From a virus (taxonomy: Duplodnaviria > Caudoviricetes): a stretch of 64,000 nucleotides of DNA. A program made the translations under genes and the position numbers. Under the pieces are notes generated by a model, which was given only the letters and a program-made list of their open reading frames with translations, searched no databases and had not been told where the DNA came from. Numbering within the stretch: position 1 is the first letter of the stretch; each line of letters starts with the position of its first letter. The stretch covers positions 96,001-160,000 of the IMG/VR virus record IMGVR_UViG_3300009431_000002. The stretch is one strand, 5' to 3'. Shown here piece after piece: positions 12,569 through 57,178 of the stretch.

Positions 12569-13318
12569 TCACACACCAAATTCTGTATCGGTGTCCGGGC
12601 TATTGGCTAGCCCATAGTGCGCCAGGAACGCGATGTCGTTGAGCACCTCGAAGGGGGGCTTCTCGACATCACTCGCCCGTGGCTCACCAAACACCAGGTC
12701 GAGGGTGGTTCGCTGCGGCGGAACGGTGGGCGTCTCGCTCCACGTCCACTGCATGAACCAGGGAATGGTGACATCGACCATTACGGCCTCTGCCTCGGCG
12801 GATCCGTTGACGATGGCCCCCGGCGGCGTTTCGGGTCCGACAGCGGCCTTCTGTCCGATGTGGTGGAACCCACCTTCCTTCTGCAACAGGCGCCGATGGA
12901 AGACGGTTCCGCGGCTGACGAGGTCGGCGATCCTCCCGGCCTCCATCCCCGTCTCGGCGACGCAGTGCGCCACGAGGTTGCCGGGGATCAGGTCCGTGTG
13001 GGTGCGCTCACCCGTCATCGTGTTCATGGTCCGCAGCTTGTCCATGACGAGCCCGGACCACTCGTAGCCGCCGCGCATCACGACGATGTGCGGCTTCTGC
13101 GCGATGGCCTCCCGGTCGACGGGGGCCTCGGCGGTGATGATGATCTTGGAGTCGTGGTCGTCCGGCTCCCAGCGGAAGGCGTCGACGTGGAAGTGGTTGA
13201 AGAGCCCCTGCAGGAAGCACACGTACAGCCGGCGCGTCCAGTCACCGATGCCCTCGTAGGGGTCTCGGTAGCCCGAGTCCGGCGTGACGGGCGCGACGGT
13301 GGGGACTCTGGAGCTCAA
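12569..13318 (-). CDS. Putative tail terminator/completion protein
   Basis: Immediately upstream of the sheath; TTGA overlap with the previous gene. Function inferred from synteny only. Confidence 0.5.
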   Translation of the reverse strand: MSSRVPTVAPVTPDSGYRDPYEGIGDWTRRLYVCFLQGLFNHFHVDAFRWEPDDHDSKIIITAEAPVDREAIAQKPHIVVMRGGYEWSGLVMDKLRTMNTMTGERTHTDLIPGNLVAHCVAETGMEAGRIADLVSRGTVFHRRLLQKEGGFHHIGQKAAVGPETPPGAIVNGSAEAEAVMVDVTIPWFMQWTWSETPTVPPQRTTLDLVFGEPRASDVEKPPFEVLNDIAFLAHYGLANSPDTDTEFGV

Positions 13319-13710
13319 GCTGTCTCCTCAGCGGCCGCGGCCTCGCGGCGCTTCCGGTCTTCGTGCATCTGCTGGTAGGCCTGGTGGCGATGATACCCGA
13401 GGGCGACGCCGCCGAGAGCTCCGCCTGCGGTCCCGAGGACCTTCAGCGCACGCGCCGCCGTGACCTGCTGTGCGGGGGTGAGGCCGTGCCAGAGTTCCGA
13501 GATGTGCGGCGCCTTGGACAGCGCGTAGTGGCCGGCGCCGCCACCGAGGTACCCGAGACCCACACCGAGGCCGACGGGCAGCCCCACGCGGCCCAACGGC
13601 TCCAGGACGCCGTAGCGGACGCCCTGCCAGAAGGTCGGGGCCTGCGGGTCCTCCGCACGCTCCTCGCCGATCTTCTGGAGCTCGTCGAAGAAGGCGCCGG
13701 TGTCGATCAT
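13315..13710 (-). CDS. Small tagged glycine-zipper protein (putative internal head protein), 131 aa
   Basis: Starts MIDTGAFFDELQKIG (TGATG coupling at 13708-13712); two Gly-rich hydrophobic segments. Confidence 0.7.
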   Translation of the reverse strand: MIDTGAFFDELQKIGEERAEDPQAPTFWQGVRYGVLEPLGRVGLPVGLGVGLGYLGGGAGHYALSKAPHISELWHGLTPAQQVTAARALKVLGTAGGALGGVALGYHRHQAYQQMHEDRKRREAAAAEETA

Positions 13711-14414
13711 CACTCGTACTCCAGCCGCATCGTCTTCACTTCTGGGTTCGCCATCAGTGCCTTCGCCTTGTTGACGAACGCTTGCACCTGCCGGTCGTAG
13801 CTCTCCCGGTCCTCGATCCCGCCGAGGGCCTTCGGGTCCTGGCTGGCCCTCTGGTAGATGGCGAGCACCCTCTGCATGTCCTCGCGGGACAGATTCCGGA
13901 TCGTGGGGGTGTCGCCGTAGGACGTATCCGTGGTGCTCTCCCACAGCTCGTTGGCGGCGTTGGCCGCGATCCAGTCGTTGAGCTTGTAGTTCGTGCCCTT
14001 GTCGTGCGGGGTCCTCACCCGCAGGTCGCGCATGGCGAAGAACGAATCGTCGGGTGGGGGGTTGTCCTCGTAGTACTTGCGCCGCGCGCCGCGGTAGGCG
14101 TCGGCGGCCTGCTGCCAGTCCTGTTGCGCCTGCAGACTCTTCTTGGTCTGCTTGGCCTGCCCCCACGGCAGGAGGCGGAACCGCCGCTTGATCTCAGGCT
14201 TCTTGCCCGGCCACTGCGGTGCACCGACGAGGTCGGCCTCCATCTTCTTGTCGTAGGCGTCTCCGGCCGCCTCGAGGGGCGCAACGGCAGCCTCCGGATC
14301 CGGGACCGAGTAGCCATGAACGTCCCAGCCGACGCCGGCGACCTTGGCCATCAGCGGACCAGCACCGATCTTCTGGAGCTCGTCGAAGAAGGCCGCAATG
14401 GATGGGGAGCTCAC
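13710..14414 (-). CDS. Tagged hypothetical protein (putative internal head protein), 234 aa
   Basis: GTG start overlapping the upstream stop (GTGA); begins SSPSIAAFFDELQKIG. Confidence 0.7.
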   Translation of the reverse strand: MSSPSIAAFFDELQKIGAGPLMAKVAGVGWDVHGYSVPDPEAAVAPLEAAGDAYDKKMEADLVGAPQWPGKKPEIKRRFRLLPWGQAKQTKKSLQAQQDWQQAADAYRGARRKYYEDNPPPDDSFFAMRDLRVRTPHDKGTNYKLNDWIAANAANELWESTTDTSYGDTPTIRNLSREDMQRVLAIYQRASQDPKALGGIEDRESYDRQVQAFVNKAKALMANPEVKTMRLEYE

Positions 14415-15313: not shown

Positions 15314-15322
15314 CCATGTCTC

Positions 15323-19950: not shown

Positions 19951-21072
19951 TCAGAACTGGTTGACCTGCGGGTACGTCAGGCCATCCTCGGCACGGTTGT
20001 TCATCGCGCCCAAGTCCTCGATATCGACGGGCTGACGATCGGCGAAGTTCGCGTCCTCCGCGCCCGTCGTGACGGAACCGCGGTAGAGCTCGAGCTTGCG
20101 GACTGCGGCGATGTTGCCGAAGCCCATGCCGATATCTTCCCACGCCTGCCAGAAGATCCGGTTGGCGCGCTTGTCGATGTAGAACTTCGTCTGGTTCAGG
20201 ATGTAGAACCGGCCGAAGAACTCGGGCTTGGTGAAGATGTAGACGTTGCCATCCCGCAGGATGTCCGTCTTGATCGTCCGGATGAAGTTGGTGCCGAGGA
20301 GCATGTTGTACTTGTAGCCGTCGACCACGGTCTCGGACTGGATCTTGTCCCCGAAGTCCTCGACGGTCCACTGCAGCACGTCCTCGAAGTCCGGCTCGGA
20401 CATGAGCATGCGCTCGGGCCGCAGGCGGTTGCGGCTCAGGAGCTTGCGCAGGTTGACGATGTCCGGCCGCAGGATGGGCCGCACCTCGAAGTCGTCCACG
20501 CCACCGAGGGTCAGGGCGTTGAGGCCCTTCACGCGGGACACGCCGACCACGGTGCCGTTGTTGACGTTGGTGCGGTTGAAGGCGACGGTGCCGTTGGTCT
20601 CGAACTGCAGCGCCTCGATGCAGGCCTCCACGTGGAGCAAGAACTCGCGGTCCTCGATCTCCTGGATGTCCTTGGCGCTGTTGTCCTCGATCACCTTCGT
20701 GATCGGCATCTCGTACGCCAGCAGCTCCTGCTCCGTCTTCTCGAACTTCTCCGAGGAGATGGTGAAGAAGGGGATGGCGTACCGCGGCGCGCTGATGTAC
20801 CGCGCGGTCGGCTGGCCCCGGAAGGTCAGCGGCATGGCGCGGGACTGCGGCTCGATGTCCACGATCCGCACGAGCGTGTCGTGGTTCTCGGACCGCTGGC
20901 ACTCGTTGCGGGTGATGGGGGTGGGCGGGACCACCTTGCGCGCGAAGCTGACCTCACGCAGGTGGTCACGGATGAAGGTGCCGCCGTACTCGGCGATCTT
21001 CTCTTTGCCCTCGGCGGTCTCCAACTTGCGGTTGAAGAGCTCGTTGAGGACCTCGGCGGGGGTGCTGGACAT
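19951..21072 (-). CDS. Major capsid protein (HK97 fold), 373 aa
   Basis: Position after protease and scaffold-like genes; size; motifs RDHLREVSFARKVVPP and IEDNSAKDIQEIEDREFL; highly optimised codons. Confidence 0.85.
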   Translation of the reverse strand: MSSTPAEVLNELFNRKLETAEGKEKIAEYGGTFIRDHLREVSFARKVVPPTPITRNECQRSENHDTLVRIVDIEPQSRAMPLTFRGQPTARYISAPRYAIPFFTISSEKFEKTEQELLAYEMPITKVIEDNSAKDIQEIEDREFLLHVEACIEALQFETNGTVAFNRTNVNNGTVVGVSRVKGLNALTLGGVDDFEVRPILRPDIVNLRKLLSRNRLRPERMLMSEPDFEDVLQWTVEDFGDKIQSETVVDGYKYNMLLGTNFIRTIKTDILRDGNVYIFTKPEFFGRFYILNQTKFYIDKRANRIFWQAWEDIGMGFGNIAAVRKLELYRGSVTTGAEDANFADRQPVDIEDLGAMNNRAEDGLTYPQVNQF

Positions 21073-23770: not shown

Positions 23771-24046
23771 TCACCTCACGCTCGGGGGCTGTAGGCCTTT
23801 GCCCATGTCGCCCGCCGGGGTGTTCTTGATGGGGGACTCCAGGCGCATCGGAGGTGCCAGCGACGGCCCCTTCACGCCCTTCACACTGGGGATGGCTCCA
23901 CTACGAGGAGACTGCACGAGCTTGGGCGCCGACGAGGTGGGGGATGTCAGTCCTGGCATCTTCGCACTCAACGCGATCTTCTCCAGCTCGTCGACGAACC
24001 CGGCCACCACTACGGGGTTGGCCGTCTTCGTCAGCTCCTTCAGCAC
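23771..24046 (-). CDS. Small tagged basic protein, 91 aa
   Basis: LTKTANPVVVAGFVDELEKIA at the N-terminus followed by a Pro/Lys/Ser-rich tail. Confidence 0.6.
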   Translation of the reverse strand: MLKELTKTANPVVVAGFVDELEKIALSAKMPGLTSPTSSAPKLVQSPRSGAIPSVKGVKGPSLAPPMRLESPIKNTPAGDMGKGLQPPSVR

Positions 24047-24055: not shown

Positions 24056-24715
24056 CTACTGGAGCAGGTGGCCGTAGCCGTTGGCCTGCAACAGCTGCGC
24101 GGCGGCCTGGTCGATGCGGTCCTGCTGCGAGGGCTGCTCCGGCGCGGCCGCGGTCTTGGCGGTCTCGCAGTCGCCCTTGCAGTCCGCCTTCAGGCACCGG
24201 CACAGCTGGTTGGCGGCGACCTTCTCGGCCAGGAACTCGTTGGCGCGGGCGGTGGCCAGCTCGACGAGCAGCGGGTCGGCCTGCGGCTGCTCGGGCTGGG
24301 CCTGCGCGGCCGCGGCGGTCTTCTGGATGACGTCCAGCTCGTTGACGAAGGCGTGGGCCATCTGCCGGCCGAGCAGATCCGCCTCGGCCATCTCGGCCGC
24401 GGCCTTCTTCTCCTCGTCGTTCATCGGCGGGCCCTCGTCCTTCTTCTCGTCCTTCTTCTCCTCGTCCTTCTCCTCCTTCTTGGGCGGGAAGGGGGGAGCG
24501 GGCGGCGCGTCGGCCGGGGCCTCCTCGGCCGCTACCTTCTTGAGGTAGTGCTGGAAGGTGGCCTGGACCTGGGCGTCGGACATCTGCGAGATGTCGTAGC
24601 CGTCGGCCGAGGCCAGCTTGTCCAGCGCGTCGTAGACGGCCTGCTGGTCGACCTGCTCCTGGTTGCGGGCGTGGCCGTAGGCCGCTGCGAGGACCGGGTT
24701 CATCTGGTCGGGCAT
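24056..24715 (-). CDS. K-x-A-rich scaffold/internal head protein, 219 aa
   Basis: DKLAS, KKVAA, AFVNELDVIQKTAA, EKVAA, AKTAA; AGGAA RBS. Confidence 0.65.
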   Translation of the reverse strand: MPDQMNPVLAAAYGHARNQEQVDQQAVYDALDKLASADGYDISQMSDAQVQATFQHYLKKVAAEEAPADAPPAPPFPPKKEEKDEEKKDEKKDEGPPMNDEEKKAAAEMAEADLLGRQMAHAFVNELDVIQKTAAAAQAQPEQPQADPLLVELATARANEFLAEKVAANQLCRCLKADCKGDCETAKTAAAPEQPSQQDRIDQAAAQLLQANGYGHLLQ

Positions 24716-45438: not shown

Positions 45439-45861
45439 TCAACGACGGAGCAGCGTCGCGCCCCCGAGGCCCAACGTGCCGAGACCAGCCATGCCTCCGG
45501 CGCCGGCCAGCGCACCGCCGCCGACGTCACGGGCGAGGTCGCCGCCCTCCTGGACCTGCTTGCCCCAGCCCTCGAGGCCCTCGCCCCAGCCGCGGCGTGT
45601 CTTGCCGGCGTCCAGGGCCTCCGTGCTCATCTTGCCCTTGGGCTGGGCCTTCACGGCGCGGGCCATGGCGTCGTCGCCCGACTGGGTGAGCTTGCCGCCC
45701 AGCCACTTGGCGCCGCGGCCGATGAGCTTGCCGGCCTGCTCGATGAGCGCGAGCTTCTCGAGGTCGCTCAGGCCACGGGCGTCTGCCACCTTCTCGAGCT
45801 CGTCGAGGAACCCGCCGACGAAGGCGTGCTCGCATGCGGCCGCGTGCTTCTCCATATCCAT
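45439..45861 (-). CDS. Tagged small membrane-anchored protein, 140 aa
   Basis: MEKHAA...GGFLDELEKVA...LEKLA; C-terminal GGGALAGAGGMAGLGTLGLGGATLL. Confidence 0.7.
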   Translation of the reverse strand: MDMEKHAAACEHAFVGGFLDELEKVADARGLSDLEKLALIEQAGKLIGRGAKWLGGKLTQSGDDAMARAVKAQPKGKMSTEALDAGKTRRGWGEGLEGWGKQVQEGGDLARDVGGGALAGAGGMAGLGTLGLGGATLLRR

Positions 45862-45870
45862 GCGGTCCTC

Positions 45871-46656
45871 CTATCCAAAGTGGCGCGGCGTTGGCGCGTC
45901 GAGCCACAGATATTTGCTTTCGTGCGCTGACAGCCGAGGCTTGAGCCACCGCATGGCTTCCTGAGGCCCGCGGCTCTGCAACTGCTCCCGGTACGCGTCC
46001 TGTATCTGACTGTACTCTAAATCTCGTCGGTCGACCGACCGCTCCAGCAACGCCCGAAACCGACGTCGCATAGCCTTCGGCATCTTCTGCCCAGGACGGC
46101 CAACGAACCCACCTGCGCGGGCGTCCCCGAACGCCTCGGACGCCTGCCTGGACAGACGCCTGTACTCCGGTTCGCGCAGCCTACGCCACAATCCAGCCGT
46201 CTCCCAGCCACCGCCCGGGCCCTCTAAGGTGTTAATGAGATTGGACTCCTGGACCAGCACATCTGGCTCTGCGTGACCAGAGACCAGTTCCGTGAGCTTC
46301 TCGCCGTAACGGCCAGCTTTCCGCTCCGCAGCCTCGTGTATGGTGGCGATCCCACGAAGGTTGGTTTGTGCCTCCCTGGAGGCGTGTGGGGCAATACCGC
46401 GACCCGCGGATGGCGCCACGTAGACGGCACCTGCAGCCCGAGCCAGGGCCGGGGACTGATCCTTTATGGCCTCCGGCAAACGCTTCGGTATGTGGAACGC
46501 GCCAGCGCGCATCGGTGTGGTGCCGAGCTCCTCCCAGGCTTTCGCTGGTAGCCTACGCAGTGGGGCGATGCGCTCGGTAGCCACGCGAAGATCTGCAGCT
46601 GACACCGCGATCTTCACAAGCTCGTCGCAAAACGCCGCCAGTCGCCTCCGCTCCAT
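45871..46656 (-). CDS. Tagged hypothetical protein with HExxE motif, 261 aa
   Basis: LAAFCDELVKIA at the N-terminus; TIHEAAE...SGH...QE; A/T-richer codons than flanks. Confidence 0.6.
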   Translation of the reverse strand: MERRRLAAFCDELVKIAVSAADLRVATERIAPLRRLPAKAWEELGTTPMRAGAFHIPKRLPEAIKDQSPALARAAGAVYVAPSAGRGIAPHASREAQTNLRGIATIHEAAERKAGRYGEKLTELVSGHAEPDVLVQESNLINTLEGPGGGWETAGLWRRLREPEYRRLSRQASEAFGDARAGGFVGRPGQKMPKAMRRRFRALLERSVDRRDLEYSQIQDAYREQLQSRGPQEAMRWLKPRLSAHESKYLWLDAPTPRHFG

Positions 46657-46664: not shown

Positions 46665-49600
46665 CTAGTACCCGACGCGGAACTCCGTGGTGCCGGGTGT
46701 TCCTTTCTCAGGCTGCCCGAACTCGGAGCCATAGGCTAGCGCCGGGATCGGATGCAACCCGTGGATGTTGCTGGACCAGCCCCTCAAGGCACCGTCGACG
46801 ATGGTGTCCTTCAGCTTCTGGTACTGGAGCCGCGCCATCCAGTCCTCCTGCATGTCCAGCGGCGTCTGCGTGACCCCGCGCAGGATGGGCGTGAACTTGA
46901 CGGGCTTCTTGCGCTTCTTGTTGTGGTACCCGACATTCGACGTGGACACCAGGTCTCCTGGGAGGAGGTCGGTGTCGCCGGCGTCATCCACTACGCCGAG
47001 GTCGGTGATGGCGCGGACCGCGGTCTCCACGTTGCGCCGGAGCACTGGGCCCGCGTCCGAGTACGCCTTGTGGACCTCGTCCGCGAGGTAGCCGCGCACC
47101 GTGTTGATGTTGGTCAGCGGCAGCATCTCGTGCGGATTGATGGGCCCGCCGGAGAGCCGGTCCCCCTTGCGGACCTTCACGCCCTTGCGCAGCTTGATCT
47201 TCTCGTTGACCAGGTGCTCGGGGACGTAGTGCCTCTTCCCCTTGACCCAGATGTTGAGGCCGCCGACCTCGGCGTCCTTCTCCACCCGCTCTACGGTGCC
47301 CGTGGTCGTCGCCAGCGTCGCCGAGTCCGCCAGCACCTTGGGCATGCGCAGCAGGTCCTGGACCCTGGTGAACTTGTCGGTGGACCGGCCGCTCTTCGAG
47401 GCAGCGACCCCGCCTTCGTGGAACGCGCGCATCGACAACTGCGTGGCGGGCTCGCCCAGTGCCTGCGACGCGATGACCCCGATGTTGGTCCCCGGGTCGG
47501 GCAGCTGGCCGTCCGGCAGGTTGCCGTAGTCCCGTGCGTACAGTCCCTTCGGGGCCACCGACTTCAGCGGGCTGCGGATCGACACGCGCCGGACGCCGCT
47601 GTTCTTCATCCTCGTCTGGACCCGGTCGGTGACCTCGGTGTTCCTCGGCAGGACGTCGCCGCCCCGGAGCTTCACGGGCCGCGCGAGGTAGCGACCGATG
47701 ACCTCGCGGTCCTCGGGGTCCGCGCTGATGCCGTCGTCGGCGTCGTCCGGCGCGTCCCCATCGACCACGACGAGGTTCATGGCAGAGTTCACGACGTCCT
47801 TGGTCAGCGCGCCGGGCTTGGCGGTCTCCTTCGTCTTCTGGATCATGCCCTTGCGCGCACCGTGCATGGCCGTGAAGTAGCTGGCGGAGTCCAGGCCCTC
47901 GGCGTAGCTCTTGGTGATCGGCACCGGCACGATGCGGTCGGCCGCGTCCTTCACCAACATGGGGGCGATGAGGATCTGCCGGACCTGGTCCCAGTTGCCG
48001 CGAGCACCGGCGTTGACCATCTCCAGGGCGTGGTTGCCCTGCCGCTCCAACTTCGGACGGATGGCCCGGCTCAGGTCCTCGGTGGCCTTGGAGTAGAGGT
48101 CGACGAGGCGCTGGTCCTTCTCCTCCTGGGTCAGCGACTTCATCTTCTGGATGCGCTTGGCCGCCTTGTGGACCCCAGCCAGGGCGCGGTCGCGCACAGC
48201 CTGCTGCGCCTGGAAGTCGTCGAGGGTGAACGACGCGCCAGACTCGTAGGCGTAGTCGTTGCCCATGTCCTTGAGGTCGTTGACGACGTCGCCGAAGTCG
48301 GCCGAGTGCTCCTTGGCCATCCGGGTGAGGAGGTCCTTGGTCGGGCCCTTGGACATCCGGAAGTCCTTGGAGTGGAGCAGCTGCGCGTCCCCTCGCATCC
48401 CCTCCGGCAGCACGCGGTCGAGGAGGATGCGACCGAGGGTCGTCTCCCTGCCCTTCACCGAGACCACGTCGGTCATGCCGAGGCCGAGCTTGCGGGCCTT
48501 GGCCGCCACCTGCGCCGGCGAGTCGAAGCGGTGCGACGTCTTCTTCCCCCACTCTGTCAGCCGGTACAGCCCGAGCTGGGCCTCGTGGCCCGGGGAGTAC
48601 ATCACCCGGCCGGTGGTGGTGTTGAACAGGTTGTTGGACGGGAAGAGCTTGCGCGCCTCCTCCACCGCCTCCTTGGCGAGCGGAACGTAGGCGGACATCT
48701 GGTCGCCGTCGAAGTCGGCGTTGTACCCCGAGGTCACCAGGGGGTGGATGCGGATGGCCTTGCCGCCGACGAGCTTGGGCTTGAACGCCATGACCCCGAA
48801 CTTGTGGAGCACCGGGTCACGCTTCAGCAGCACCGGCCGCTCCTCCATCACGCGCTCAAGCGCGTGCCGGGCGACCTTGGAGTTGGTCCGGACCAGGTGC
48901 TGTGCCTCGGCGGGGACGTAGCCCTGCTCCCGCACCAGCTTTCGCACGACGAAGGGCTTGTACGTCTCCTTCGCCAGCTTGTAGGGGATGCCCACCTCGT
49001 CCAGTCCCATGTCGGGCTCGGGGATGATGGTGGACCGCATCGACAGGTCCTGCCGGCGGGAGACGAGGTTCTTCTGGAAGAACGAGTCCTTGGGCTGGGG
49101 CACGCCCTTCATCGTCTCCATCACGCCGCGGTGCTTGCGGCCGTTGATGGTGGAGCCGGTCATCATCAGGGCGCGGAGCCCGTCGTAGAGCTCGGCGGTC
49201 AGCTTGCTCTTCGTCTTCTCCCCGAGTCCGGGGTCGTAGTCCCGCAGCTGGATGTTGGTGATGCCGAGGCTCTTGTACAGGCCGTTGATGTCCGAGTCGT
49301 TGAGCTTGCCCGACTCCATCACCGAGACCGGCCGCATCACCGGCGGCATGACGGGCACGACCGAGGTGAAGTACGCCTGGTCGGGGGTCAGGTCGTTGGC
49401 GACCAGCGCCTCGAGGAACCGGATCTGCTTGCGCAGCTTCGCCATCGTCGACACGGCCTTGGTGGTCTCGGCCTGGCGACGGAGCGTCTCCAGCTGCTGC
49501 CGTGGGTCGATGGCCGCCAGCCGTGCGCGGATGGCTTCGGGCCCGGTCTTCCCGTCGAGCGTCTTCTCGCCGGCGATGACGGCCTGGTAGTCCTTGTTCT

Positions 49601-52600
49601 TCAGCCCCGTGAAGGTGAGGATGGCCTTCTCGAACACCGGGTTCGGCATGGGCTCGGCCAGCCGGATGTGGGACCAGCGCTTGCCGTCCACACCGCCCGT
49701 GGCGTAGGGGTCGAACAGCCCGCCGCGCTCCGGCTTGAGGTCCTTGCCCCGGAACATCAGGCCCGGGTCCTTCAGTTCGCCGCTGGACATCCGCAGGATC
49801 TGCTCGTCGGTGAGGGGCGCGAGGTTCAGGGTCGAGCCCTGCTTCTTGACGTCGACGCCCAGCACGTTGAGGTAGCCGTTGAACTTGTCGAAGGCGAACG
49901 AGGTGGACGGCGGTGGGAGCTGCTCCCCAGTCTGCAGGGCCATCCACAGCTCGGGGTTCTTCTGGCTCTTGTAGGTGGCCATCTCCCGGATGTTGGCCTT
50001 CGCTCCATGAGCCAACATGGCGTACATGCCCAACGCGTCCATGGCCTGGGCGCCGTGGGCACCACCGCCCTTCGGAACCTCGTTGACGCTGTACGCGTAC
50101 CCGGCCCCGCCCGCGCGGGCGTGGGACTTCTTGTCGATCTGGTGCTTGAGCTTGAGGATGTACTGGTCGCCCGTGAGGATCGGCCCCAGGCTCTGCCCGG
50201 ACTTGGGGTCCACCAGCTCCTCGGTGTCGGACAGGCCCTCCTTCGCCAGCTCCGCCTTCATCTCCTTGGCGTAGTTGCGGTTGGCCCCGCCGAAGTTGTT
50301 GGTGACGTACCGCTTGCCCCGCTTCCGGGCGATCTTCCCGGCCATCGTCTCGAGGACCTGGCCGAGGTTGATGCGGCCGGGGATGCCAGCCGGGTTGAGC
50401 AGGACCTCGACCGGGGCGCCCTCTTCGCCAGAGGCGCGCGGCATCTCGTGGTCAGGCAGCACCGCCGTGACGATGCCCTTGTTGCCGTGGCGTCCGACCA
50501 GCTTGTCCCCGACGCGGGCAGGCTCCTCGGTGGCGACGTGGACGCTGACGTCCTTGCCCCGCTTGACGACGCGGACCACCCGGCCCTTCGTGTCCTTGTC
50601 CCAGACGATGGGCTTGGGGTCCATGTCCCGCACGAGGCTCTTGTGCAGCCGCGCCCGCATGCGACGCTCGCTGGTCTGCTCCGGCTTCTTCAGCGCGGCG
50701 ACGAGGATGTCCCCCTCGTTGACCTCCTGCCCCACCTGGATGACGCCGTCGTCGTCGAGCTTGTCGTAGACCTCGCGCTGCACGCGGTCGGGTGGCGCGT
50801 ACGCGCGGAACTTCTTCTTGTCCAGGACCGTGTTCTTGGTCAGCCGCATGCTCTTGCGGTGCATGTGCTGGGACTTGAGCTTCTCGGCCGCGGACTCGGA
50901 GACGACGATGCCGTCCTCGAAGTTGTACCCACGGTACGGGATGTAGGCCACCCGGAGGTTCTTGCCCAGCGCGAGCTTGCCTTCGCGCGTGAAGTTGGTG
51001 TCGGCCACCGTCTGGCCGCGCTTGACCTTGTCCCCCTTCTTCACGAGGGGCTCGGAGTGCAGGACGCTGGACGCCTCGTTGAGCGGGAAGTGGTCGTAGA
51101 GCTGGACCTCCTCCAGCTTCCCGGCCTTGCTCCGGATCTTGATGGCGCCGGGCCTCACCGACACCACGGTGCCTTCCACCGGGGACTCGTGGGAGTTGAA
51201 CTGGCCCAGCACGTCCTCGAAGGTGGACCTCACCTCGGTCTTGGACTGCACCAGCGGCTCGTCGCGGTCCACCAGGGGCACGGCCTGCTCCTGCTGCCGG
51301 GACGCCGTCATGGCCCTGTTGCCCTGGTTGTTCTGCAGGAAGGGCACGAGGTTGGTGGCCATGCTGAACAGGCCCTTGGCCGACGGGAGGATGTAGTCCA
51401 CCTCGCTGGCCGGCACCTGCATCACCTCGCCGCCCGGGCCGCTGACCGTCACCTCCTTACCGATGGGGACGAGCCGGTTCTTCACCTTCTTGTACTGGTC
51501 TGGGAAGGCGACGGTGGAGCGGTGCGCCTTGTGCGGATCGATCTTCTCCCGGCGGCCCGTCTTCGTGTTGTAGGCCTGGATGTAGAGGGTCTTGCCCTTC
51601 CGCGACACCCCCAGCGGGAGCTGGAGGGTGATGCCGGTGCGGTCACCCTCCGGGGTGTGGATGGGGTCGAGGAAGCCGAGGTGCGTCGGGTCGATGAGCT
51701 GGTCGGCGTCGGTCAGGGTGTGGGTGCTCTTGACCCCGCCCTCGCCCATGATGGTGGTCTTGGACTGGCCGGAGATGAACTCCAGCGGGTTGACCTGGTC
51801 GGGCATCTGCGACAGCTGGGTCTGGGTGAAGAAGGTCTTGATGGGCTTGTCGAACAGCCCGGGGGTCACGACCTCCCTGACGTCGGCCTTGCGGTCGATG
51901 TTGTTCTCCATCTTCCGCTGCAGATCCCAACGGCCGCGGGTCAGCCGCTCGGCCACGAAGTCGTCGACCGACAACGCGTCCTTGTAGAACAGGTGCTCAC
52001 GCGCGTCCGGGGTGTCCTCGCCCCTCGAGATCCGCGCGAGCTTGTGGGCCGAGGCCAGGAGCGACGGGCCGCTCACCTTGTCGTAGGCCTTGCCCAGGGT
52101 GATCTTCGTGCTGTCGGGGCGCAGCACGGTCGTGCCGAACTCATCTCGGAGGTGGCGCTCGGCGTCCTCGATGCTGGGTGCCTGCTTGCCCGTCGACGCC
52201 TTGTAGAAGGCGCGCATGGCGACGTCGTGCTTCTCCTTCTTCCCCTGGTTGAGGATCCCGCGGCCCAGCTCGCGCTCGATGGTGTCGTCGTCGACCCCCA
52301 GCACCTTGAGCATCGGGTAGAGCGGGATGTGGGAGTTGCCGTACCGGACCAGGAACCGCCGGTCCTCCGGGTGGAACCGGAGCCGGAAGTTCTTGCCTTT
52401 CGCCATGTTCCACTGGGACTCCAGCTCACCCTTGGCGCTGACGCGGTGGTACACCCCAGCCTTCAACCGGAACTGGTTGTCGACCTGGTACTCCTTGCCG
52501 TCGACGATGTAGGAGTGCCGCTTGGTCACGCGGGGCAGGTTGCCCACGCGCATGGACTTGCGGCTGATGACCTTGCCCGTCTCCTTGTTGACCAGGGAGA

Positions 52601-52811
52601 CGTCGGCCATAACAGGGTCAGCCCAAGTCCTGCCCTTGAGCTTCGCGTCCTGCTGGGACCGGATGTCGTCGATGCCCTTCTTGTCGTCGACCCAGACCCG
52701 GTGGAGCTCCAGCCGGTTCTCTCGCCCCTCGAAGGGGAACATCGACGAGATGGCGTCGCTGACACGGTCTTTGAGGGCACCGTAGGAACCCTCTGGGTTC
52801 AGTGTCGCCAT
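46665..52811 (-). CDS. rpoBC: Single-chain fused beta-beta' multisubunit-type RNA polymerase, 2048 aa
   Basis: Beta motifs GDKLVGRHGNKG, LNPAGIPGRINLGQVLE, ILKLKH; beta' motifs KPERGGLF, PVMPPVMRP, LLKRDPVLH, YNADFDGDQM (catalytic), HGARKG (bridge helix), SQALGEPATQLSMRAFH (trigger loop). Confidence 0.97.
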   Translation of the reverse strand: MATLNPEGSYGALKDRVSDAISSMFPFEGRENRLELHRVWVDDKKGIDDIRSQQDAKLKGRTWADPVMADVSLVNKETGKVISRKSMRVGNLPRVTKRHSYIVDGKEYQVDNQFRLKAGVYHRVSAKGELESQWNMAKGKNFRLRFHPEDRRFLVRYGNSHIPLYPMLKVLGVDDDTIERELGRGILNQGKKEKHDVAMRAFYKASTGKQAPSIEDAERHLRDEFGTTVLRPDSTKITLGKAYDKVSGPSLLASAHKLARISRGEDTPDAREHLFYKDALSVDDFVAERLTRGRWDLQRKMENNIDRKADVREVVTPGLFDKPIKTFFTQTQLSQMPDQVNPLEFISGQSKTTIMGEGGVKSTHTLTDADQLIDPTHLGFLDPIHTPEGDRTGITLQLPLGVSRKGKTLYIQAYNTKTGRREKIDPHKAHRSTVAFPDQYKKVKNRLVPIGKEVTVSGPGGEVMQVPASEVDYILPSAKGLFSMATNLVPFLQNNQGNRAMTASRQQEQAVPLVDRDEPLVQSKTEVRSTFEDVLGQFNSHESPVEGTVVSVRPGAIKIRSKAGKLEEVQLYDHFPLNEASSVLHSEPLVKKGDKVKRGQTVADTNFTREGKLALGKNLRVAYIPYRGYNFEDGIVVSESAAEKLKSQHMHRKSMRLTKNTVLDKKKFRAYAPPDRVQREVYDKLDDDGVIQVGQEVNEGDILVAALKKPEQTSERRMRARLHKSLVRDMDPKPIVWDKDTKGRVVRVVKRGKDVSVHVATEEPARVGDKLVGRHGNKGIVTAVLPDHEMPRASGEEGAPVEVLLNPAGIPGRINLGQVLETMAGKIARKRGKRYVTNNFGGANRNYAKEMKAELAKEGLSDTEELVDPKSGQSLGPILTGDQYILKLKHQIDKKSHARAGGAGYAYSVNEVPKGGGAHGAQAMDALGMYAMLAHGAKANIREMATYKSQKNPELWMALQTGEQLPPPSTSFAFDKFNGYLNVLGVDVKKQGSTLNLAPLTDEQILRMSSGELKDPGLMFRGKDLKPERGGLFDPYATGGVDGKRWSHIRLAEPMPNPVFEKAILTFTGLKNKDYQAVIAGEKTLDGKTGPEAIRARLAAIDPRQQLETLRRQAETTKAVSTMAKLRKQIRFLEALVANDLTPDQAYFTSVVPVMPPVMRPVSVMESGKLNDSDINGLYKSLGITNIQLRDYDPGLGEKTKSKLTAELYDGLRALMMTGSTINGRKHRGVMETMKGVPQPKDSFFQKNLVSRRQDLSMRSTIIPEPDMGLDEVGIPYKLAKETYKPFVVRKLVREQGYVPAEAQHLVRTNSKVARHALERVMEERPVLLKRDPVLHKFGVMAFKPKLVGGKAIRIHPLVTSGYNADFDGDQMSAYVPLAKEAVEEARKLFPSNNLFNTTTGRVMYSPGHEAQLGLYRLTEWGKKTSHRFDSPAQVAAKARKLGLGMTDVVSVKGRETTLGRILLDRVLPEGMRGDAQLLHSKDFRMSKGPTKDLLTRMAKEHSADFGDVVNDLKDMGNDYAYESGASFTLDDFQAQQAVRDRALAGVHKAAKRIQKMKSLTQEEKDQRLVDLYSKATEDLSRAIRPKLERQGNHALEMVNAGARGNWDQVRQILIAPMLVKDAADRIVPVPITKSYAEGLDSASYFTAMHGARKGMIQKTKETAKPGALTKDVVNSAMNLVVVDGDAPDDADDGISADPEDREVIGRYLARPVKLRGGDVLPRNTEVTDRVQTRMKNSGVRRVSIRSPLKSVAPKGLYARDYGNLPDGQLPDPGTNIGVIASQALGEPATQLSMRAFHEGGVAASKSGRSTDKFTRVQDLLRMPKVLADSATLATTTGTVERVEKDAEVGGLNIWVKGKRHYVPEHLVNEKIKLRKGVKVRKGDRLSGGPINPHEMLPLTNINTVRGYLADEVHKAYSDAGPVLRRNVETAVRAITDLGVVDDAGDTDLLPGDLVSTSNVGYHNKKRKKPVKFTPILRGVTQTPLDMQEDWMARLQYQKLKDTIVDGALRGWSSNIHGLHPIPALAYGSEFGQPEKGTPGTTEFRVGY

Positions 52812-53107: not shown

Positions 53108-53109
53108 CC

Positions 53110-54208: not shown

Positions 54209-54232
54209 GAGTGGGGGCCGCCCCACTCTTTT
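54209..54232 (+). terminator. Intrinsic terminator
   Basis: GAGTGGGG-GCCG-CCCCACTC followed by TTTT, between convergent genes. Confidence 0.85.
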
Positions 54233-54241
54233 AGATCGGGA

Positions 54242-56239
54242 TCAGACGACCGCCCGCTCGAGGGGCCGGCGCGGGGGCTTCTGCTCGGGGAGGGGCTGCT
54301 GAAGCGGATTCAGCGTGTCTCGCTGGCCTCCATCGCCCTCGCTCAGCAGGGCCTGGACCATGCGGTAGATGTCGGGGCTGCCCATCCGCAGCTTCTGCAT
54401 GGCCTGCGGGAACATGGCCGGCTGCTCGTCCTGGATCCGGCGCATCTCCGTGGCGATGCGTCGCGCGACGAAGCGGACGTCGACCATCTCGTTGCCGCCG
54501 GTCATCTGCCCCATGTGCATGGGGGACTGGACCTCCTGCGGGAGGTTGTCGACGTACACGGCCGCGCCGTCCGGCACACCCGGACCGATCTGCTCGCCGC
54601 GCATGACCGATGGCTGGGTCTGCGGCAGCTCGGCGTAGGACGGCGGGGACTCCGGCGGCTGCTGCATCTGCATCTGCATGTGCTGGGCCTGGATCTCGTA
54701 GCGGAGGGCCGCCAGCTGGGCCTCCCCCTGCGCCGCGGCCTGGGCCACCACCATCTCGCGGTTGGCTGCCACCTGCTTGACCAGCTCCTGCTTCTTCCGC
54801 TTCTCCTCGGTCTCCAAGTCCTCGCCGAGCTCGCGGAGGAACGTGGTGTCGGAGATCTTCATGGCCTGGTTCGCCTGGAAGTAGACCATCAGCCTCTGCA
54901 GGTCGTCGGCCATCTTGAACCGCTCGAACCGGATGGGCACCCTCGGCCAGCCGAGGAACTCGCAGATGCGGCCCATGACGAAGTCGCCAACCAGCCGGAG
55001 TTGGTCGTCGCGGTACCCACTGAACTGGTTCTCGAGGATGCGCATCGACACGTTGGTGCCGGTGTACTGCATGCCACCGAAGATGAACTCGATGGGCACG
55101 TTCATGCCCGCGATGATCTGCTCGCTCCAGACCCGCAGCTCCTGGTGGAGGATGAGCGCCCGTCCCTGGCCGCCGATCATCTCGTGGCCGAGTGGGATGG
55201 GCATCAGCGGGATGTAGTTGGGGTCCTGGCGCCAGCGAGCGATCTCCTCCTGGACCTGGTCCTTCCACTCCCCGAGGTTGATCATCGTGATGGGGTCGCC
55301 GGTCTGCCCGTTGGCCTGCGGGTACAGCACGCGCAGCGGGACGATGTGCTCCTGGGCGATCATCTCCTGGCCCTTGCGCAGGACCTGCAGGTAGAAGATG
55401 TCCTTGAGCACGGGCAGGACCAGCGGCATGCCCCAGCCCTGGTCCTTCTGGGCGATGATGGGCCGCTTGAGGTGGAACAGCGTGCCCGGCGCGAACTTCA
55501 CCGACTTCTTCTTCCGCATCGCCTCGATGAAGGTGTCGGGCACCGTCTCGATGACGTTGCGGCGGCCGATGGTGATGGCGTTCTTCAGCTTCTGCGGCAG
55601 CTTGTAGAAGTAGGTCGGGTCGGTGACGCCCTCGTTGTCGTCGATCTCCACCCGCTCCGGGTCCCACCGGACCAGCCGGATGCCCTTGGCCGTCCGCATG
55701 GCCTCGTCGTGGACCTCGGCCGGCCGGCGCTCCCCGCACTCGGGGCAGGTCAGGTAGTAGACCATCTCCTGGTAGCGGTAGTGCCTGCGGAGCTTGTCGA
55801 TGGGCGCCTTGTGGCCGCAGTGACGGCACTTGAGGTGCTTGACGAAGGGGAAGTGCACCGTGACGAAGGCGTTGCCGTAGTTGTAGTAGTCCAGCCCCAC
55901 CTCGATCTGGAACTTGCGGACCTGGAGCTGGTCCTCGAAGAGGTGGCGGTACCGCTCTCGGACGTCCTTGTCGTCGGCCTCGTAGATGATCTTGGTGATG
56001 GGGTACTCGGCCAGCTTGTACACGACCGCGTTGATGAGCGGGTTCGTGAAGAAGAAGTACCGGCACCACTGCAGCATCTGCTTGAGGCGCGCGGGGAAGT
56101 ACGTCTGGGCGGCGTCGAAGAACGGGTTGGGGTACCGCACCCCGGTCCGCTGCATGCTCGAGCCGAGCGTGACGGGCGTGCGGGAGAAGCGGGTCAGCCC
56201 GTCACCGTAGGAGACGCCGGTGTACCCGAGGCCTGGCAT
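54242..56239 (-). CDS. Portal protein with zinc-ribbon insertion, 665 aa
   Basis: NPLINAVVYKLAEYPIT, GLDYYNYGNAFV, GWGMPLVLPVLK are portal-like; insertion CRHC...CPEC; Q/M/P-rich C-terminal tail. Confidence 0.85.
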   Translation of the reverse strand: MPGLGYTGVSYGDGLTRFSRTPVTLGSSMQRTGVRYPNPFFDAAQTYFPARLKQMLQWCRYFFFTNPLINAVVYKLAEYPITKIIYEADDKDVRERYRHLFEDQLQVRKFQIEVGLDYYNYGNAFVTVHFPFVKHLKCRHCGHKAPIDKLRRHYRYQEMVYYLTCPECGERRPAEVHDEAMRTAKGIRLVRWDPERVEIDDNEGVTDPTYFYKLPQKLKNAITIGRRNVIETVPDTFIEAMRKKKSVKFAPGTLFHLKRPIIAQKDQGWGMPLVLPVLKDIFYLQVLRKGQEMIAQEHIVPLRVLYPQANGQTGDPITMINLGEWKDQVQEEIARWRQDPNYIPLMPIPLGHEMIGGQGRALILHQELRVWSEQIIAGMNVPIEFIFGGMQYTGTNVSMRILENQFSGYRDDQLRLVGDFVMGRICEFLGWPRVPIRFERFKMADDLQRLMVYFQANQAMKISDTTFLRELGEDLETEEKRKKQELVKQVAANREMVVAQAAAQGEAQLAALRYEIQAQHMQMQMQQPPESPPSYAELPQTQPSVMRGEQIGPGVPDGAAVYVDNLPQEVQSPMHMGQMTGGNEMVDVRFVARRIATEMRRIQDEQPAMFPQAMQKLRMGSPDIYRMVQALLSEGDGGQRDTLNPLQQPLPEQKPPRRPLERAVV

Positions 56240-57178
56240 CTACGCCCTCCTCTCGGCCGAAGGCGCGAAGAGCGTGGTGCTGGGCGTCGTCGCCCCCGAG
56301 GGCGTGGGCGGCGGCCGCAGGGACTGCTGCCTGCGCTTGTGGTAGCCCAGCAGCTTGTCGATGCCCTTGCCCAGCGTGCCCATCGACCTGGAGCCGACCT
56401 CCCAGCCCGCGATGGATCCCCCGAAGCCGGTGGGCATCCCCGCGACCATGCCGGCGTGACCGCCGAGGTGCTGCAGCGCTCGTTCTGCGTGGCCCCGCGG
56501 CTTCCCGCCACCGAAGGCGTGCGGGTCGTCGCGCTTGACGATGTGAGGGGAGAAGGCTCCGCCGAAGCCCGCCAGCATGGACTTGCCTCCCACCGGCGCG
56601 TACTTGGTCAGCTCGCCGGACCCAGTCCAGCCGCGGCGCGACAGCTCCTCAGCCAGCTCACGAGGCCGGGTCGCCACGTCACGGAGCCGCTGCGACTCGT
56701 CGAAGAGGTGACTCGTCTCGGCGTGGGGCCGCACGGCCTTGGCTTGCTCCCCCATCGCGCGCCGAGTGCCCGAGCCGCCGGCCCACTCCGGTGCGTACCA
56801 CCTGTAGGCGCCCTCGGCCTTCCGGGTCTCCTTCATACCCTCCTGCAGCGCCTTGTGCGCGGCGGGGTCACCCCTGACGGCCTGCATGATGTCCTCGGGC
56901 AGGCCCTTGGTCTTGGCGTAGCTGGCCCAGTCGTCGAACCCGGCCCGGCGGGCCTCGAGCATCAGCCGCTGCGTGGCCCCCTCCACCGGGCTGAGGTGCT
57001 CCCAGCCCCGACGAAGGATCTGTCCCGTGCGGCGCGGGTCGAAGGTCTTGGCGGCGGTGGCGGTGCCGTGCGCCGCGGAGGTGAGCTGGTTGAGGAGGAA
57101 GCGAAGCGGGTTGGCCTGCTTCTCCAGCTCGTCCTCGAACGCATCCAGTCGAGCTGGCGTCAGGGCGCGAGAAGCCAT
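56240..57178 (-). CDS. Tagged glycine-zipper protein, about 312 aa
   Basis: RLDAFEDELEKQA near the N-terminus; two hydrophobic Gly-rich segments near the C-terminus; no Cys seen. Confidence 0.65.
   Translation of the reverse strand: MASRALTPARLDAFEDELEKQANPLRFLLNQLTSAAHGTATAAKTFDPRRTGQILRRGWEHLSPVEGATQRLMLEARRAGFDDWASYAKTKGLPEDIMQAVRGDPAAHKALQEGMKETRKAEGAYRWYAPEWAGGSGTRRAMGEQAKAVRPHAETSHLFDESQRLRDVATRPRELAEELSRRGWTGSGELTKYAPVGGKSMLAGFGGAFSPHIVKRDDPHAFGGGKPRGHAERALQHLGGHAGMVAGMPTGFGGSIAGWEVGSRSMGTLGKGIDKLLGYHKRRQQSLRPPPTPSGATTPSTTLFAPSAERRA

What the first reader, a model, noticed from the sequence alone, without database searches (positions are those of the whole stretch)
13315..57178. A shared peptide tag, (A/G)-F-x-D-E-L-x-K-(I/V/Q)-(A/G/S), on otherwise unrelated head-module proteins
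Seen: GAFFDELQKIG (about 13667-13699), AAFFDELQKIG (14365-14397), AGFVDELEKIA (23972-24004), AAFDDEMEKIS in Snf2 (36866-36899), GGFLDELEKVA (45784-45816), AAFCDELVKIA (46606-46639), DAFEDELEKQA (57113-57146). Variants are AFVNELDVIQKTA (about 24311-24356) and ANFVELAKTS (SWIM protein). Most copies are N-terminal and the rest of each protein differs. Established: T4 internal proteins use a short N-terminal capsid-targeting sequence removed by the prohead protease. Inference: a portable amphipathic-helix address plus cleavage site that loads cargo into the head.
Basis: partly seen in the sequence, partly recalled or inferred. Interest (0 to 1): 0.87.

Follow-up and report, generated by a model that had tools for sequence, protein, structure and literature searches.

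The report
Shared head-loading tag on jumbo-phage proteins
An uncultured family of roughly 200-kb phages puts the same ten-residue helical tag (A-F-x-D-E-L-x-K-I-A) at the start of dozens of unrelated, mostly small and basic proteins, most likely to load them into the phage head for injection, as phage T4 does with a different tag.

Summary
All seven listed copies are present. The 202-kb genome holds nine strong copies, eight of them 5-17 residues from a protein start. Shuffled proteomes reach 18.7 bits at most; the eight seed copies score 28-37 and the ninth 19.0.

The tag marks a large uncultured phage family defined by its capsid protein:
- Five complete relatives carry 6-8 copies each.
- 154 distinct copies were collected, and 117 have an ATG within 14 codons.
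- Synonymous codons vary, so selection acts on the peptide.

The attached bodies fall into 69 unrelated families. They are short (median 107 aa), basic (median pI 10.4 against 5.6), Lys-rich and almost cysteine-free. A few are enzymes. One is an Snf2 helicase whose orthologue is abundant in virions of the cultured distant relative Arash.

A tag-like helix is conserved inside a scaffold-like protein encoded between a T4 gp21-like prohead protease and the capsid gene. The tag's end resembles a short motif, E-K-[I/V/T]-A, that is enriched in head proteins, including the protease's own linker.

Packaging and cleavage were not shown. This scan has noted analogous tags with other sequences in other phages.

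The parts
13315..13710 (-). Tagged cargo gene (131 aa). Tag GAFFDELQKIG at 13666-13698, residues 5-15. The body has two glycine-zipper, membrane-like segments.
13710..14414 (-). Tagged cargo gene (234 aa, GTG start). Tag AAFFDELQKIG at 14364-14396. The tag DNA is identical over 29 nt to that of the neighbouring gene.
19951..21072 (-). Major capsid protein (HK97 fold). The conserved N-arm contains E-K-I-A at residues 24-27 (20992-21003).
23771..24046 (-). Small tagged protein (91 aa, basic, Pro/Ser-rich). Tag AGFVDELEKIA at 23972-24004. A tagged gene stands at this position, just downstream of the scaffold-like gene, in the relatives examined.
24056..24715 (-). Scaffold-like all-alpha protein (219 aa). 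It holds a conserved internal tag-like helix (AEADLLGRQMAHAFVNELDVIQKTA, about 24320-24394). In many relatives the motif reads ...AH[AS]YxQELxKI[AG], followed by a basic tail.
24729..26420 (-). Probable prohead serine protease (residues about 45-265, gp21/assemblin fold), a disordered linker with conserved E-K-T-A at residues 284-287 (25560-25571), and a conserved C-terminal domain of unknown role.
34980..36233 (-). SWIM-zinc-finger protein (417 aa, basic) with a degenerate tag GANFVELAKTS at residues 20-30. Its orthologues in relatives carry the canonical tag.
36230..39073 (-). Snf2 helicase (947 aa) with an internal tag, MQAAFDDEMEKIS at 36866-36904, heading a lineage-specific C-terminal module. 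In relatives Snf2 is about 500-720 aa, and three relatives' loci (L143, L233, L123) show the tag at or near its N-terminus.
45439..45861 (-). Tagged cargo gene (140 aa). Tag GGFLDELEKVA at 45784-45816. C-terminal glycine-zipper segment.
45871..46656 (-). Tagged cargo gene (261 aa, basic). Tag AAFCDELVKIA at 46606-46638. It lies directly downstream of the RNA polymerase gene. GC3 is only 0.70.
46665..52811 (-). Fused beta-beta' RNA polymerase (2048 aa), untagged context gene. Its two halves match Arash Gp206 and Gp216, which are abundant in Arash virions.
54242..56239 (-). Portal protein (30% identity over 444 aa to the Arash portal Gp204, E 3e-80).
56240..57178 (-). Tagged cargo gene (312 aa, basic). 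Tag DAFEDELEKQA at 57113-57145. It abuts the portal gene.

Best explanation
The motif h-x-[AGS]-F-x-D-E-L-x-K-I-[AGS] is a portable targeting peptide. It works like the capsid-targeting sequence (CTS) of phage T4, but it has a different sequence and belongs to a different, uncultured family of roughly 200-kb phages.

Inferred mechanism:
- The tag forms a short amphipathic helix with F, L and I on one face.
- The helix docks the protein onto a conserved part of the assembling prohead core. A scaffold-like core protein carries its own copy, so cargo joins the core as a scaffold mimic.
- The gp21-like prohead protease then probably cuts at or near the K-[I/V/T]-[A/G/S] end of the tag.
- The basic bodies stay with the packaged DNA and are injected with it.

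The cargo is a fast-changing set of small basic proteins plus some enzymes (Snf2 helicase, SWIM protein, NlpC/P60-type amidases, GNAT, MazG). These probably act at the start of infection.

Shown: the motif itself, its mostly near-N-terminal position, its conservation at the peptide level across the family, the unrelatedness and basic character of the bodies, and the tag-like helix in the scaffold-like protein. Inferred: docking, cleavage, packaging and injection.
For: - Significance: the eight seed copies score 28-37 bits and the ninth 19.0, against 18.7 at most in 50 shuffles.
- Family-wide: 6-8 DNA-pattern matches in each of five complete relatives, against 0-1 for the reversed control. Of 24 contigs with tag-like matches, 20 carry the family capsid gene. 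The four without it are fragments 31-52% complete. Three contigs whose matches looked like chance lack it.
- Peptide-level selection: codons vary at F, D, L, I and A.
- Position: 117 of 154 distinct copies have an ATG within 14 codons upstream of the F.
- Portability: 112 tagged ORFs fall into 69 BLAST families. Two neighbouring genes share a 29-nt identical tag. The tag sits at or near the N-terminus of Snf2 in three relatives but inside it here.
- Cargo character: median 107 aa; median pI 10.4 against 5.6; 91% against 27% with pI above 8 (p about 1e-25); Lys 8.6% against 4.0%; Cys 0.1% against 1.1%. T4 internal proteins are likewise small and basic, vary between related phages, and carry 10-19-residue CTSs removed by gp21 (PMC9026906).
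- Head link: the tag-like helix is conserved in the scaffold-like protein in all 13 complete or near-complete relatives examined. It lies in a helix with pLDDT above 90. That gene stands beside a protease whose best structural match is T4 gp21 (Z 7.1).
- Virion link: the N-terminally tagged Snf2 of one relative is 38% identical (E 3e-94) to Arash Gp217, which had 38 unique peptides in Arash virions.
- Cleavage hint: [EQ]K[IVT][AG] occurs 30 times against 8.3 +/- 2.8 expected. With tags masked it is 5.3-fold denser in virion-type operons (p 6e-5). It is conserved in the protease linker and the capsid N-arm.
- Operon context: all copies lie on the minus strand in operons that also hold the portal, capsid, protease and RNA polymerase genes.
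Against: - There is no proteomic or experimental evidence that any tagged protein of this family is in virions or is processed.
- The cultured distant relatives lack the tag (Arash), so their virion data bear on it only through orthology of one cargo protein.
- The binding partner is unknown. The single complex prediction, tag against capsid protein, protease domain and scaffold-like protein together, scored 0.03 and is uninformative.
- The tag has no T4-type L/I-x-E or phiKZ-type A/S/G-x-E site.
- The proposed K-[ITV]-A site rests on enrichment alone, and the choice of 'virion-type' blocks was partly post hoc.
- The packaged-looking RNA polymerase itself has no tag.
- Two tagged genes (13315-14414) lie among tail-type genes.
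- One relative has a copy 3 residues from a C-terminus, which a cleaved N-terminal propeptide does not explain.
Confidence: 0.6

Rival explanations
1. The motif is only a recognition and cleavage site for the prohead protease. It marks propeptides and internal cut sites in proteins that reach the head by other means, and has no addressing role.
For: The C-terminal part of the tag matches the short motif E-K-[I/V/T]-A. That motif is enriched in head proteins and conserved in the protease's own linker and the capsid N-arm. Internal copies exist in Snf2 and in the scaffold-like protein.
Against: Ten conserved residues with helical periodicity are far more than known assemblin-fold proteases need, and such proteases bind extended strands. 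It is unclear why 5-17-residue N-terminal propeptides with no function of their own would be kept on 69 unrelated protein families. One copy lies 3 residues from a C-terminus.
Confidence: 0.12
2. The tag docks proteins onto another virion or virion-associated structure rather than the head core. Candidates are the portal or tail channel, the baseplate, or the packaged RNA polymerase (assembling a transcription complex).
For: Tagged genes flank the RNA polymerase gene (45439-46656) and the portal gene (56240-57178). Two lie among tail-type genes whose neighbours match Arash tail-region structural proteins. Snf2 and SWIM proteins are plausible polymerase partners.
Against: The conserved tag-like helix is in a protein encoded between the protease and the capsid gene. 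Most cargo is small, basic and low in complexity, like DNA-associated internal head proteins, not like fibres or adhesins.
Confidence: 0.1
3. The tag acts inside the infected cell and not in the virion. It could be an amphipathic helix for membrane association, or a peptide that binds a host factor such as a chaperone, protease or polymerase.
For: It is an amphipathic helix. Glycine-zipper, membrane-like segments occur in 19% of cargo families against 3.6% of other proteins.
Against: It would not explain the copy in the scaffold-like head protein, the restriction to virion-type operons, or the tag on the Snf2 helicase whose orthologue is packaged in Arash. The tag is net acidic, which is unusual for a membrane-binding helix.
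Confidence: 0.08
4. The tag is a leader recognised by a tailoring enzyme (RiPP-like), for example the methyltransferase-radical-SAM, glycosyltransferase and sulfotransferase cluster of this genome.
For: The genome encodes such a cluster at genome 44700-50558.
Against: The methyltransferase-radical-SAM protein has no match in 13 tag-bearing complete or near-complete relatives. Radical-SAM domains occur in only 3 of 14 tag-bearing genomes, while the control genomes all matched.
Confidence: 0.03
5. The conservation is at the DNA or RNA level (a translation or recombination signal at gene starts), or is simply a remnant of recent paralogy.
For: Two adjacent genes share 29 identical nucleotides.
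Against: Across relatives with 49-69% G+C the amino acids are kept while codons change (TTC/TTT, GAC/GAT, five Leu codons, three Ile codons). The bodies share no detectable similarity.
Confidence: 0.02

Closest known systems
Capsid targeting sequence (CTS) of phage T4 internal proteins IPI, IPII, IPIII and Alt, removed by the prohead protease gp21 (reviewed in PMC9026906)
   Same: A short N-terminal peptide is shared by otherwise unrelated proteins. The cargo is small and basic and varies between related phages. Some cargo is enzymatic. The phage encodes a gp21-like protease next to scaffold-type genes and the capsid gene.
   Different: There is no sequence similarity to MKTYQEFIAE and no L/I-x-E site. 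The motif is longer and far more strictly conserved: in the 80 copies gathered with a pattern that fixes F, E and K, D is kept in 74, L in 69 and I in 74. A tag-like copy is embedded in a scaffold-like protein. The tag also occurs internally and once at a C-terminus. The phage family is not T4-like; its nearest solved capsid protein is phage G gp27 (6wkk) and its nearest cultured relatives are Arash and Vibrio phages at under 30% capsid identity. Function is untested.
Propeptides of head and ejection proteins in phiKZ-like giant phages (SPN3US gp245 and phiKZ gp175 proteases; PMC5694885, PMC7411985, PMC10052503)
   Same: Giant phages that package many proteins, including RNA polymerase subunits, and process them with a gp21-type protease.
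   Different: Those phages are described as using a short cleavage motif of the A/S/G-x-E type and longer, dissimilar propeptides (my own knowledge; these papers were listed by the search but not read here). No single conserved addressing helix is described for them.
Encapsulin cargo-loading peptides
   Same: A short portable peptide that directs unrelated cargo to the inside of an HK97-fold shell.
   Different: Encapsulin peptides are mostly C-terminal and bind the shell protein in extended form (my own knowledge). Here the peptide is helical and mostly N-terminal, the partner is unknown, and the system is a tailed phage with scaffold, protease and portal.
Other shared N-terminal tags noted by this scan in other phages (e.g. 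MIKLIDILKE, MK[ST]LxEFIxE, MNRYDIALGKKPPP)
   Same: The same architecture: one short leader on many unrelated phage proteins, read as a capsid address.
   Different: Different sequences and different phage lineages. The F-x-D-E-L-x-K-I-A motif was noted only in this genome.

Membership tests
T4-type capsid targeting sequence system | A short peptide at or near the N-terminus, shared by otherwise unrelated proteins of one phage | tested here: met
   Eight of nine strong copies lie at residues 5-17. In relatives, 117 of 154 copies have an ATG within 14 codons. The bodies fall into 69 BLAST families.
T4-type capsid targeting sequence system | Cargo proteins are small and basic and vary between related phages | tested here: met
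   Median 107 aa, median pI 10.4, 91% with pI above 8 against 27% of untagged proteins. Orthologues are mostly undetectable between relatives whose capsid proteins are 62-68% identical.
T4-type capsid targeting sequence system | The phage encodes a gp21/assemblin-fold prohead protease in the head gene cluster | tested here: met
   For window 24729-26420: a weak PHROG hit to head maturation protease, S78/S77 neighbours in the Atlas, and T4 gp21 5jbl as best structural match (Z 7.1, 133 residues, 3.4 A) followed by herpesvirus proteases. The scores are moderate but all point the same way.
T4-type capsid targeting sequence system | The tag ends in the protease's cleavage motif (T4: L/I-x-E) | tested here: inconclusive
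   The T4 motif is absent from the tag. A different candidate, [EQ]-K-[IVT]-[AG], matches the tag's end. It is enriched in the proteome (30 against 8.3 expected), 5.3-fold denser in virion operons, and conserved in the protease linker and capsid N-arm. No cleavage data exist.
T4-type capsid targeting sequence system | Sequence similarity to the T4 CTS (MKTYQEFIAE) | tested here: not met
   The consensus of 80 copies is h-x-[AGS]-F-x-D-E-L-x-K-I-[AGS], which does not align with the T4 peptide. The resemblance is one of function, not homology.
T4-type capsid targeting sequence system | Tagged proteins are found in virions and the tag is sufficient for loading | not testable with these tools
   Indirect only. 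An N-terminally tagged Snf2 helicase of a relative is 38% identical to Arash Gp217, which is abundant in Arash virions. Arash itself lacks the tag.
Leader peptide of a RiPP-like tailoring enzyme (radical SAM) | The enzyme co-occurs with the tagged proteins | tested here: not met
   PF04055 is found in 3 of 14 tag-bearing genomes, and this genome's own enzyme in 0 of 13 relatives.
Encapsulin-type cargo-loading peptide | The peptide binds the inner face of the HK97-fold shell protein | tested here: inconclusive
   The complex prediction that included the capsid protein scored 0.03, reported by the tool as no answer.

The most novel reading that the evidence does not exclude
The tag is a scaffold-mimic docking helix that serves as a family-wide, plug-and-play loading code. 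Any protein that acquires these ten residues joins the prohead core beside the scaffold-like protein that carries the same helix. It is then trimmed at a previously undescribed K-[I/V/T]-A protease site and injected. Acquisition can be by recombination, as the 29-nt identical cassette suggests. The injected proteome of a widespread uncultured jumbo-phage family could then be read from sequence alone. It comprises dozens of basic effector families plus Snf2, SWIM, amidase, GNAT and MazG enzymes. The tag could also be used to load foreign cargo.
Probability: 0.4. Interest if true: 0.72.

Novelty: new variant of a known kind. Interest (0 to 1): 0.6.

Why it matters
If the reading holds, proteins that these phages deliver into the host with their DNA can be recognised from sequence alone. 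This is otherwise hard to do for uncultured viruses. The cargo set is large, basic, fast-evolving and mostly of unknown function. That profile is expected of early-acting anti-defence and takeover factors such as T4 IPI, so the tag gives a ready catalogue of candidates. The scaffold-embedded copy and the candidate K-[I/V/T]-A site also make the unknown receptor of such targeting peptides testable. The T4 review read here speaks only of affinity for the core and co-purification with gp22. To my knowledge the T4 receptor is still not defined. Finally, it would be a second, sequence-unrelated tag for engineering protein loading into phage heads.

Tried and rejected
- Complex prediction of the 40-residue tag peptide against capsid protein, protease domain (1-270) and scaffold-like protein together: score 0.03, reported by the tool as no answer. 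It is neither support nor evidence against. Using four chains departs from the tool's calibration, so a pairwise run might behave differently.
- Megablast of 25 kb of the window against phage and plasmid collections: no match.
- tblastn of the tagged protein 13710-14414 against phages: no match.
- Pfam and PHROGs on tagged proteins and many neighbours: almost all empty.
- Profile of the protease alignment against PDB sequences: no hit. Only fold comparison pointed to gp21.
- Literature search for the motif strings: no paper.
- Search of the 5.8-billion-protein collection with the first 40 residues of a tagged protein: only the query itself, because a 10-residue motif cannot reach significance there.
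- Search for the Snf2 C-terminal module in five relatives: nothing. This fits a lineage-specific fusion but does not prove one.
- Radical-SAM leader hypothesis: tested and rejected.
- T4-type (L/I-x-E) and phiKZ-type (A/S/G-x-E) cleavage sites within the tag: considered by inspection and rejected, because the P3 position is variable.
- Arash as a direct test bed: rejected, because Arash has no tag.

Full report
**Setting**

The window is bases 96001-160000 of a single 201,921-bp virus contig with 67% G+C. Spurious ORFs abound at this G+C, so I called genes with a self-trained codon model. It gave 237 genes at 92% coding density. I added two ORFs by hand from codon-position G+C.

Landmarks on the minus strand of the window:
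- Large terminase, 29817-31586 (PHROG E 4e-55).
- Major capsid protein, 19951-21072 (PHROG 2522; profile hit to the solved phage capsid protein 6wkk).
- Portal, 54242-56239 (30% identity to the Arash portal, E 3e-80).
- Fused beta-beta' RNA polymerase, 46665-52811.
- Snf2 helicase, 36230-39073.
- Pyrophosphatase-domain protein, 39075-39992.

The nearest cultured relatives are distant: Salmonella phage Arash and three Vibrio phages, at 27-29% capsid identity.

**The observation**

Both variants are real. The whole genome adds two more, in two adjacent small genes at genome 921-1759.

A position-weight scan scores the eight seed copies at 28-37 bits and the ninth at 19.0. The best score in 50 shuffled proteomes was 18.7.

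With gene starts assigned, eight of the nine lie 5-17 residues from the start. The ninth is at residue 727 of the 947-residue Snf2 protein and has a Met three residues before it.

All tagged genes are on the minus strand in operons that also hold virion genes. Genes are split 119 to 118 between the strands. None of the tagged proteins except Snf2 matches a Pfam family, and apart from Snf2 only the SWIM protein has a (weak) PHROG match.

**Spread and conservation**

The capsid protein finds 288 relatives in IMG/VR, many on contigs of 180-210 kb.

- In the 80 fetched loci, F-x-D-E-L-x-K-I-[AG] recurs in 32. It is always on the capsid gene's strand and nearly always just after a Met. One copy recurs about 2.3-2.8 kb upstream of the capsid gene, which is the position of window gene 23771-24046.
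- Five complete relatives each hold 6-8 matches to a degenerate DNA pattern for the motif, against 0-1 for the reversed pattern.
- Of 24 contigs with tag-like matches, 20 carry the family capsid gene. The four that do not are fragments 31-52% complete. Three contigs whose matches looked like chance do not carry it.
- Arash has no copy.

The tag is therefore a hallmark of this capsid family.

Across loci of 49-69% G+C the residues are kept while codons change: TTC 114/TTT 40, GAC 84/GAT 66, five Leu codons and three Ile codons. Selection is on the peptide, not on DNA or RNA. The consensus of 80 copies is h-x-[AGS]-F-x-D-E-L-x-K-I-[AGS]. Of 154 distinct copies, 117 have an ATG within 14 codons, and many of the rest lie within about 35 codons of a stop, so they probably use GTG or TTG starts.

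**What is attached**

Beyond the tag the proteins are unrelated. The 112 distinct N-terminally tagged complete ORFs fall into 69 BLAST families, mostly singletons, even among phages whose capsid proteins are 62-68% identical.

| Property | Tagged bodies | Untagged proteins of this genome |
|---|---|---|
| Median length | 107 aa | 170.5 aa |
| Median pI | 10.4 | 5.6 |
| Share with pI above 8 | 91% | 27% (Mann-Whitney p about 1e-25) |
| Lys | 8.6% | 4.0% |
| Asp + Glu | 7.5% | 14.1% |
| Cys | 0.1% | 1.1% |
| Glycine-zipper segments | 19% of families | 3.6% of proteins |

The bodies are also rich in Gly, Ala and Pro. The Lys excess holds in low- and high-G+C loci alike, so it is not a composition artefact.

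Among 29 larger tagged proteins, Pfam finds an Snf2 helicase, C92 and NlpC/P60 amidases, a GNAT, a glyoxalase, a MazG and a TsaE-like domain. The SWIM protein of the window, whose tag is degenerate, has orthologues with the canonical tag.

**Portability**

The two adjacent genes at 13315-14414 share 29 identical nucleotides encoding the tag, with unrelated flanks.

The position of the tag on Snf2 differs between lineages:
- In relatives G009 and G010, Snf2 is an open frame of about 500 aa without the window's C-terminal module.
- In one relative (L143) the tag sits at the helicase's own N-terminus. Two others (L233, L123) show N-terminally or near-N-terminally tagged helicase-type ORFs.
- In the window it heads a lineage-specific C-terminal module, which looks like a fusion of a tagged gene onto Snf2.

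**Link to the head**

Three lines connect the tag to head assembly.

1. *A tag-like helix in a scaffold-like protein.* The gene 24056-24715 lies between the protease gene and the capsid gene. It encodes an all-alpha protein with disordered acidic linkers. All its orthologues examined, including those of 13 of 13 complete or near-complete relatives, contain ...AEADFLGRxMAH[AS][YFM]xQE[LM]... continuing either as xKI[AG] (canonical-like) or as xxIxKxA, followed by a basic tail. In the AlphaFold model this segment is the C-terminal half of a 40-residue helix with pLDDT above 90. A tagged small gene stands just downstream of it in the relatives examined.

2. *A gp21-like protease.* The gene 24729-26420 has a weak PHROG hit to head maturation protease, S78/S77 neighbours in the ESM Atlas, and T4 gp21 as its best structural match (Z 7.1, 133 residues, 3.4 A), followed by herpesvirus proteases. 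Its homologue in Arash (Gp222) is a virion protein.

3. *A packaged orthologue.* In Arash virions the RNA polymerase beta (Gp206) and beta' (Gp216) proteins and the helicase Gp217 are among the most abundant proteins. Gp217 had 38 unique peptides and 1148 spectra (PMC10585845). The window's polymerase and Snf2 are their homologues. The N-terminally tagged Snf2 of relative G016 is 38% identical to Gp217 (E 3e-94), with the tag as an extra 17-22 residues in front.

**A possible cleavage site**

The end of the tag (x-K-I-A) resembles a short motif that recurs in head proteins.

- [EQ]K[IVT][AG] occurs 30 times in the proteome, against 8.3 +/- 2.8 in shuffles (maximum 15).
- With tags masked there are 18 in 20.2 thousand residues of virion-type operons, against 7 in 41.7 thousand residues elsewhere (p 6e-5). 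The block definition was partly post hoc.
- It is conserved in the disordered linker just after the protease domain. There E-K-x-A, often followed by Ser, is near-invariant in 40 orthologues.
- It is also conserved in the capsid N-arm (E-K-I-A at residues 24-27; a loose form is kept in 39 of 40 orthologues).

This is the pattern expected of a maturation protease's site, but no cleavage data exist. The tag has no T4-type or phiKZ-type Glu site.

**Mechanism proposed**

The tag has a hydrophobic moment of 0.55-0.58 as a helix and 0.1 as a strand. F, L and I fall on one face, and D and K are placed for an i to i+4 salt bridge.

I propose that this helix docks cargo onto a conserved component of the prohead core, in the way the scaffold-like protein's own helix does. 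The protease would then trim it at or near K-[I/V/T]-[A/G/S]. The basic bodies would stay with the DNA and be injected.

This is how T4 handles its internal proteins. They have 10-19-residue CTSs, are basic, co-purify with the scaffold gp22, are cleaved by gp21, and vary between related phages (PMC9026906).

The partner remains unknown.

**Rivals**

- *A cleavage site without an addressing role* is possible. However, it does not explain ten conserved helical residues on short propeptides of 69 families.
- *Docking to the portal, tail or polymerase* is not excluded.
- *A role inside the infected cell* (membrane or host factor) does not explain the scaffold copy or the packaged Snf2 orthologue.
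Here radical-SAM domains occur in 3 of 14 tag-bearing genomes, and this genome's enzyme in none of 13 relatives. I reject it.
- *A DNA-level signal* is contradicted by the synonymous variation.

**Novelty and verdict**

I found no paper containing the motif strings. The kind of system is known from T4, and this scan has noted analogous tags with other sequences in other phages.

New here:
- the sequence of the tag;
- the phage family that carries it;
- the strictness of its conservation;
- the copy embedded in a scaffold-like protein;
- the candidate K-[I/V/T]-A site;
- the size and character of the cargo catalogue.

I class it as a new variant of a known kind. I give 0.6 confidence to the head-loading reading and an interest score of 0.6.

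Noticed in passing
window 24729-26420: Besides its gp21-like domain, the probable prohead protease has a conserved C-terminal extension of about 300 residues (helical, with invariant G367, L370, P372, E374, F375 and Q376). Its function is unknown. It is a candidate hub for binding core or cargo proteins.
   Followed up: partly
window 22067-23767, 26425-27099, and tagged genes 13315-13710, 45439-45861, 56240-57178: Glycine-zipper, membrane-like segments recur in several head-cluster proteins, tagged and untagged. This suggests ejected proteins that insert into host membranes.
   Followed up: partly
tagged ORFs of relatives (loci L002-L233); window 46665-52811: Tagged cargo bodies are almost free of cysteine (0.1% against 1.1% in the other proteins of this genome). 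Another first-reader note says the fused RNA polymerase also has no cysteine. Cys avoidance may mark the packaged or ejected protein set.
   Followed up: partly
window 45871-46656: This tagged ORF has much weaker third-position G+C (0.70) than its neighbours (0.9 or more). This may indicate recent acquisition or relaxed selection. My codon-model gene caller missed it.
   Followed up: no
genome 44700-50558 (outside the window; locus L235): The cluster of sulfotransferases, a methyltransferase-radical-SAM fusion and GT4/GT2 glycosyltransferases is lineage-specific. The radical-SAM protein has no match in 13 related genomes.
   Followed up: yes
locus L115 (G006:C1:12047-15481): In the closest relative (capsid protein 85% identical) the N-terminal 150 residues of the window's Snf2 protein match inside an open frame of 1730 aa. 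The helicase region is therefore rearranged or fused differently even between close relatives.
   Followed up: no
locus L088 (G001:C1:73516-76538): One relative has a canonical copy (FLDELSKIA) only three residues from the C-terminus of an ORF. This is the only C-terminal copy seen.
   Followed up: no
window 24056-24715 and its orthologues: The N-terminal part of the scaffold-like protein also carries a conserved, weaker tag-like element (...YGT...ED-x-EK-x-A...). The protein may therefore hold two related motifs.
   Followed up: no
window 8010-12530, 14411-15313, 18095-18592: These proteins match Arash structural proteins Gp236, Gp234 and Gp233, which are encoded near the PAAR spike gene. The region downstream of the capsid gene is therefore a tail or baseplate module, although it has no informative PHROG or Pfam hits (14411-15313 matches only phrog_2806, of unknown function).
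   Followed up: partly
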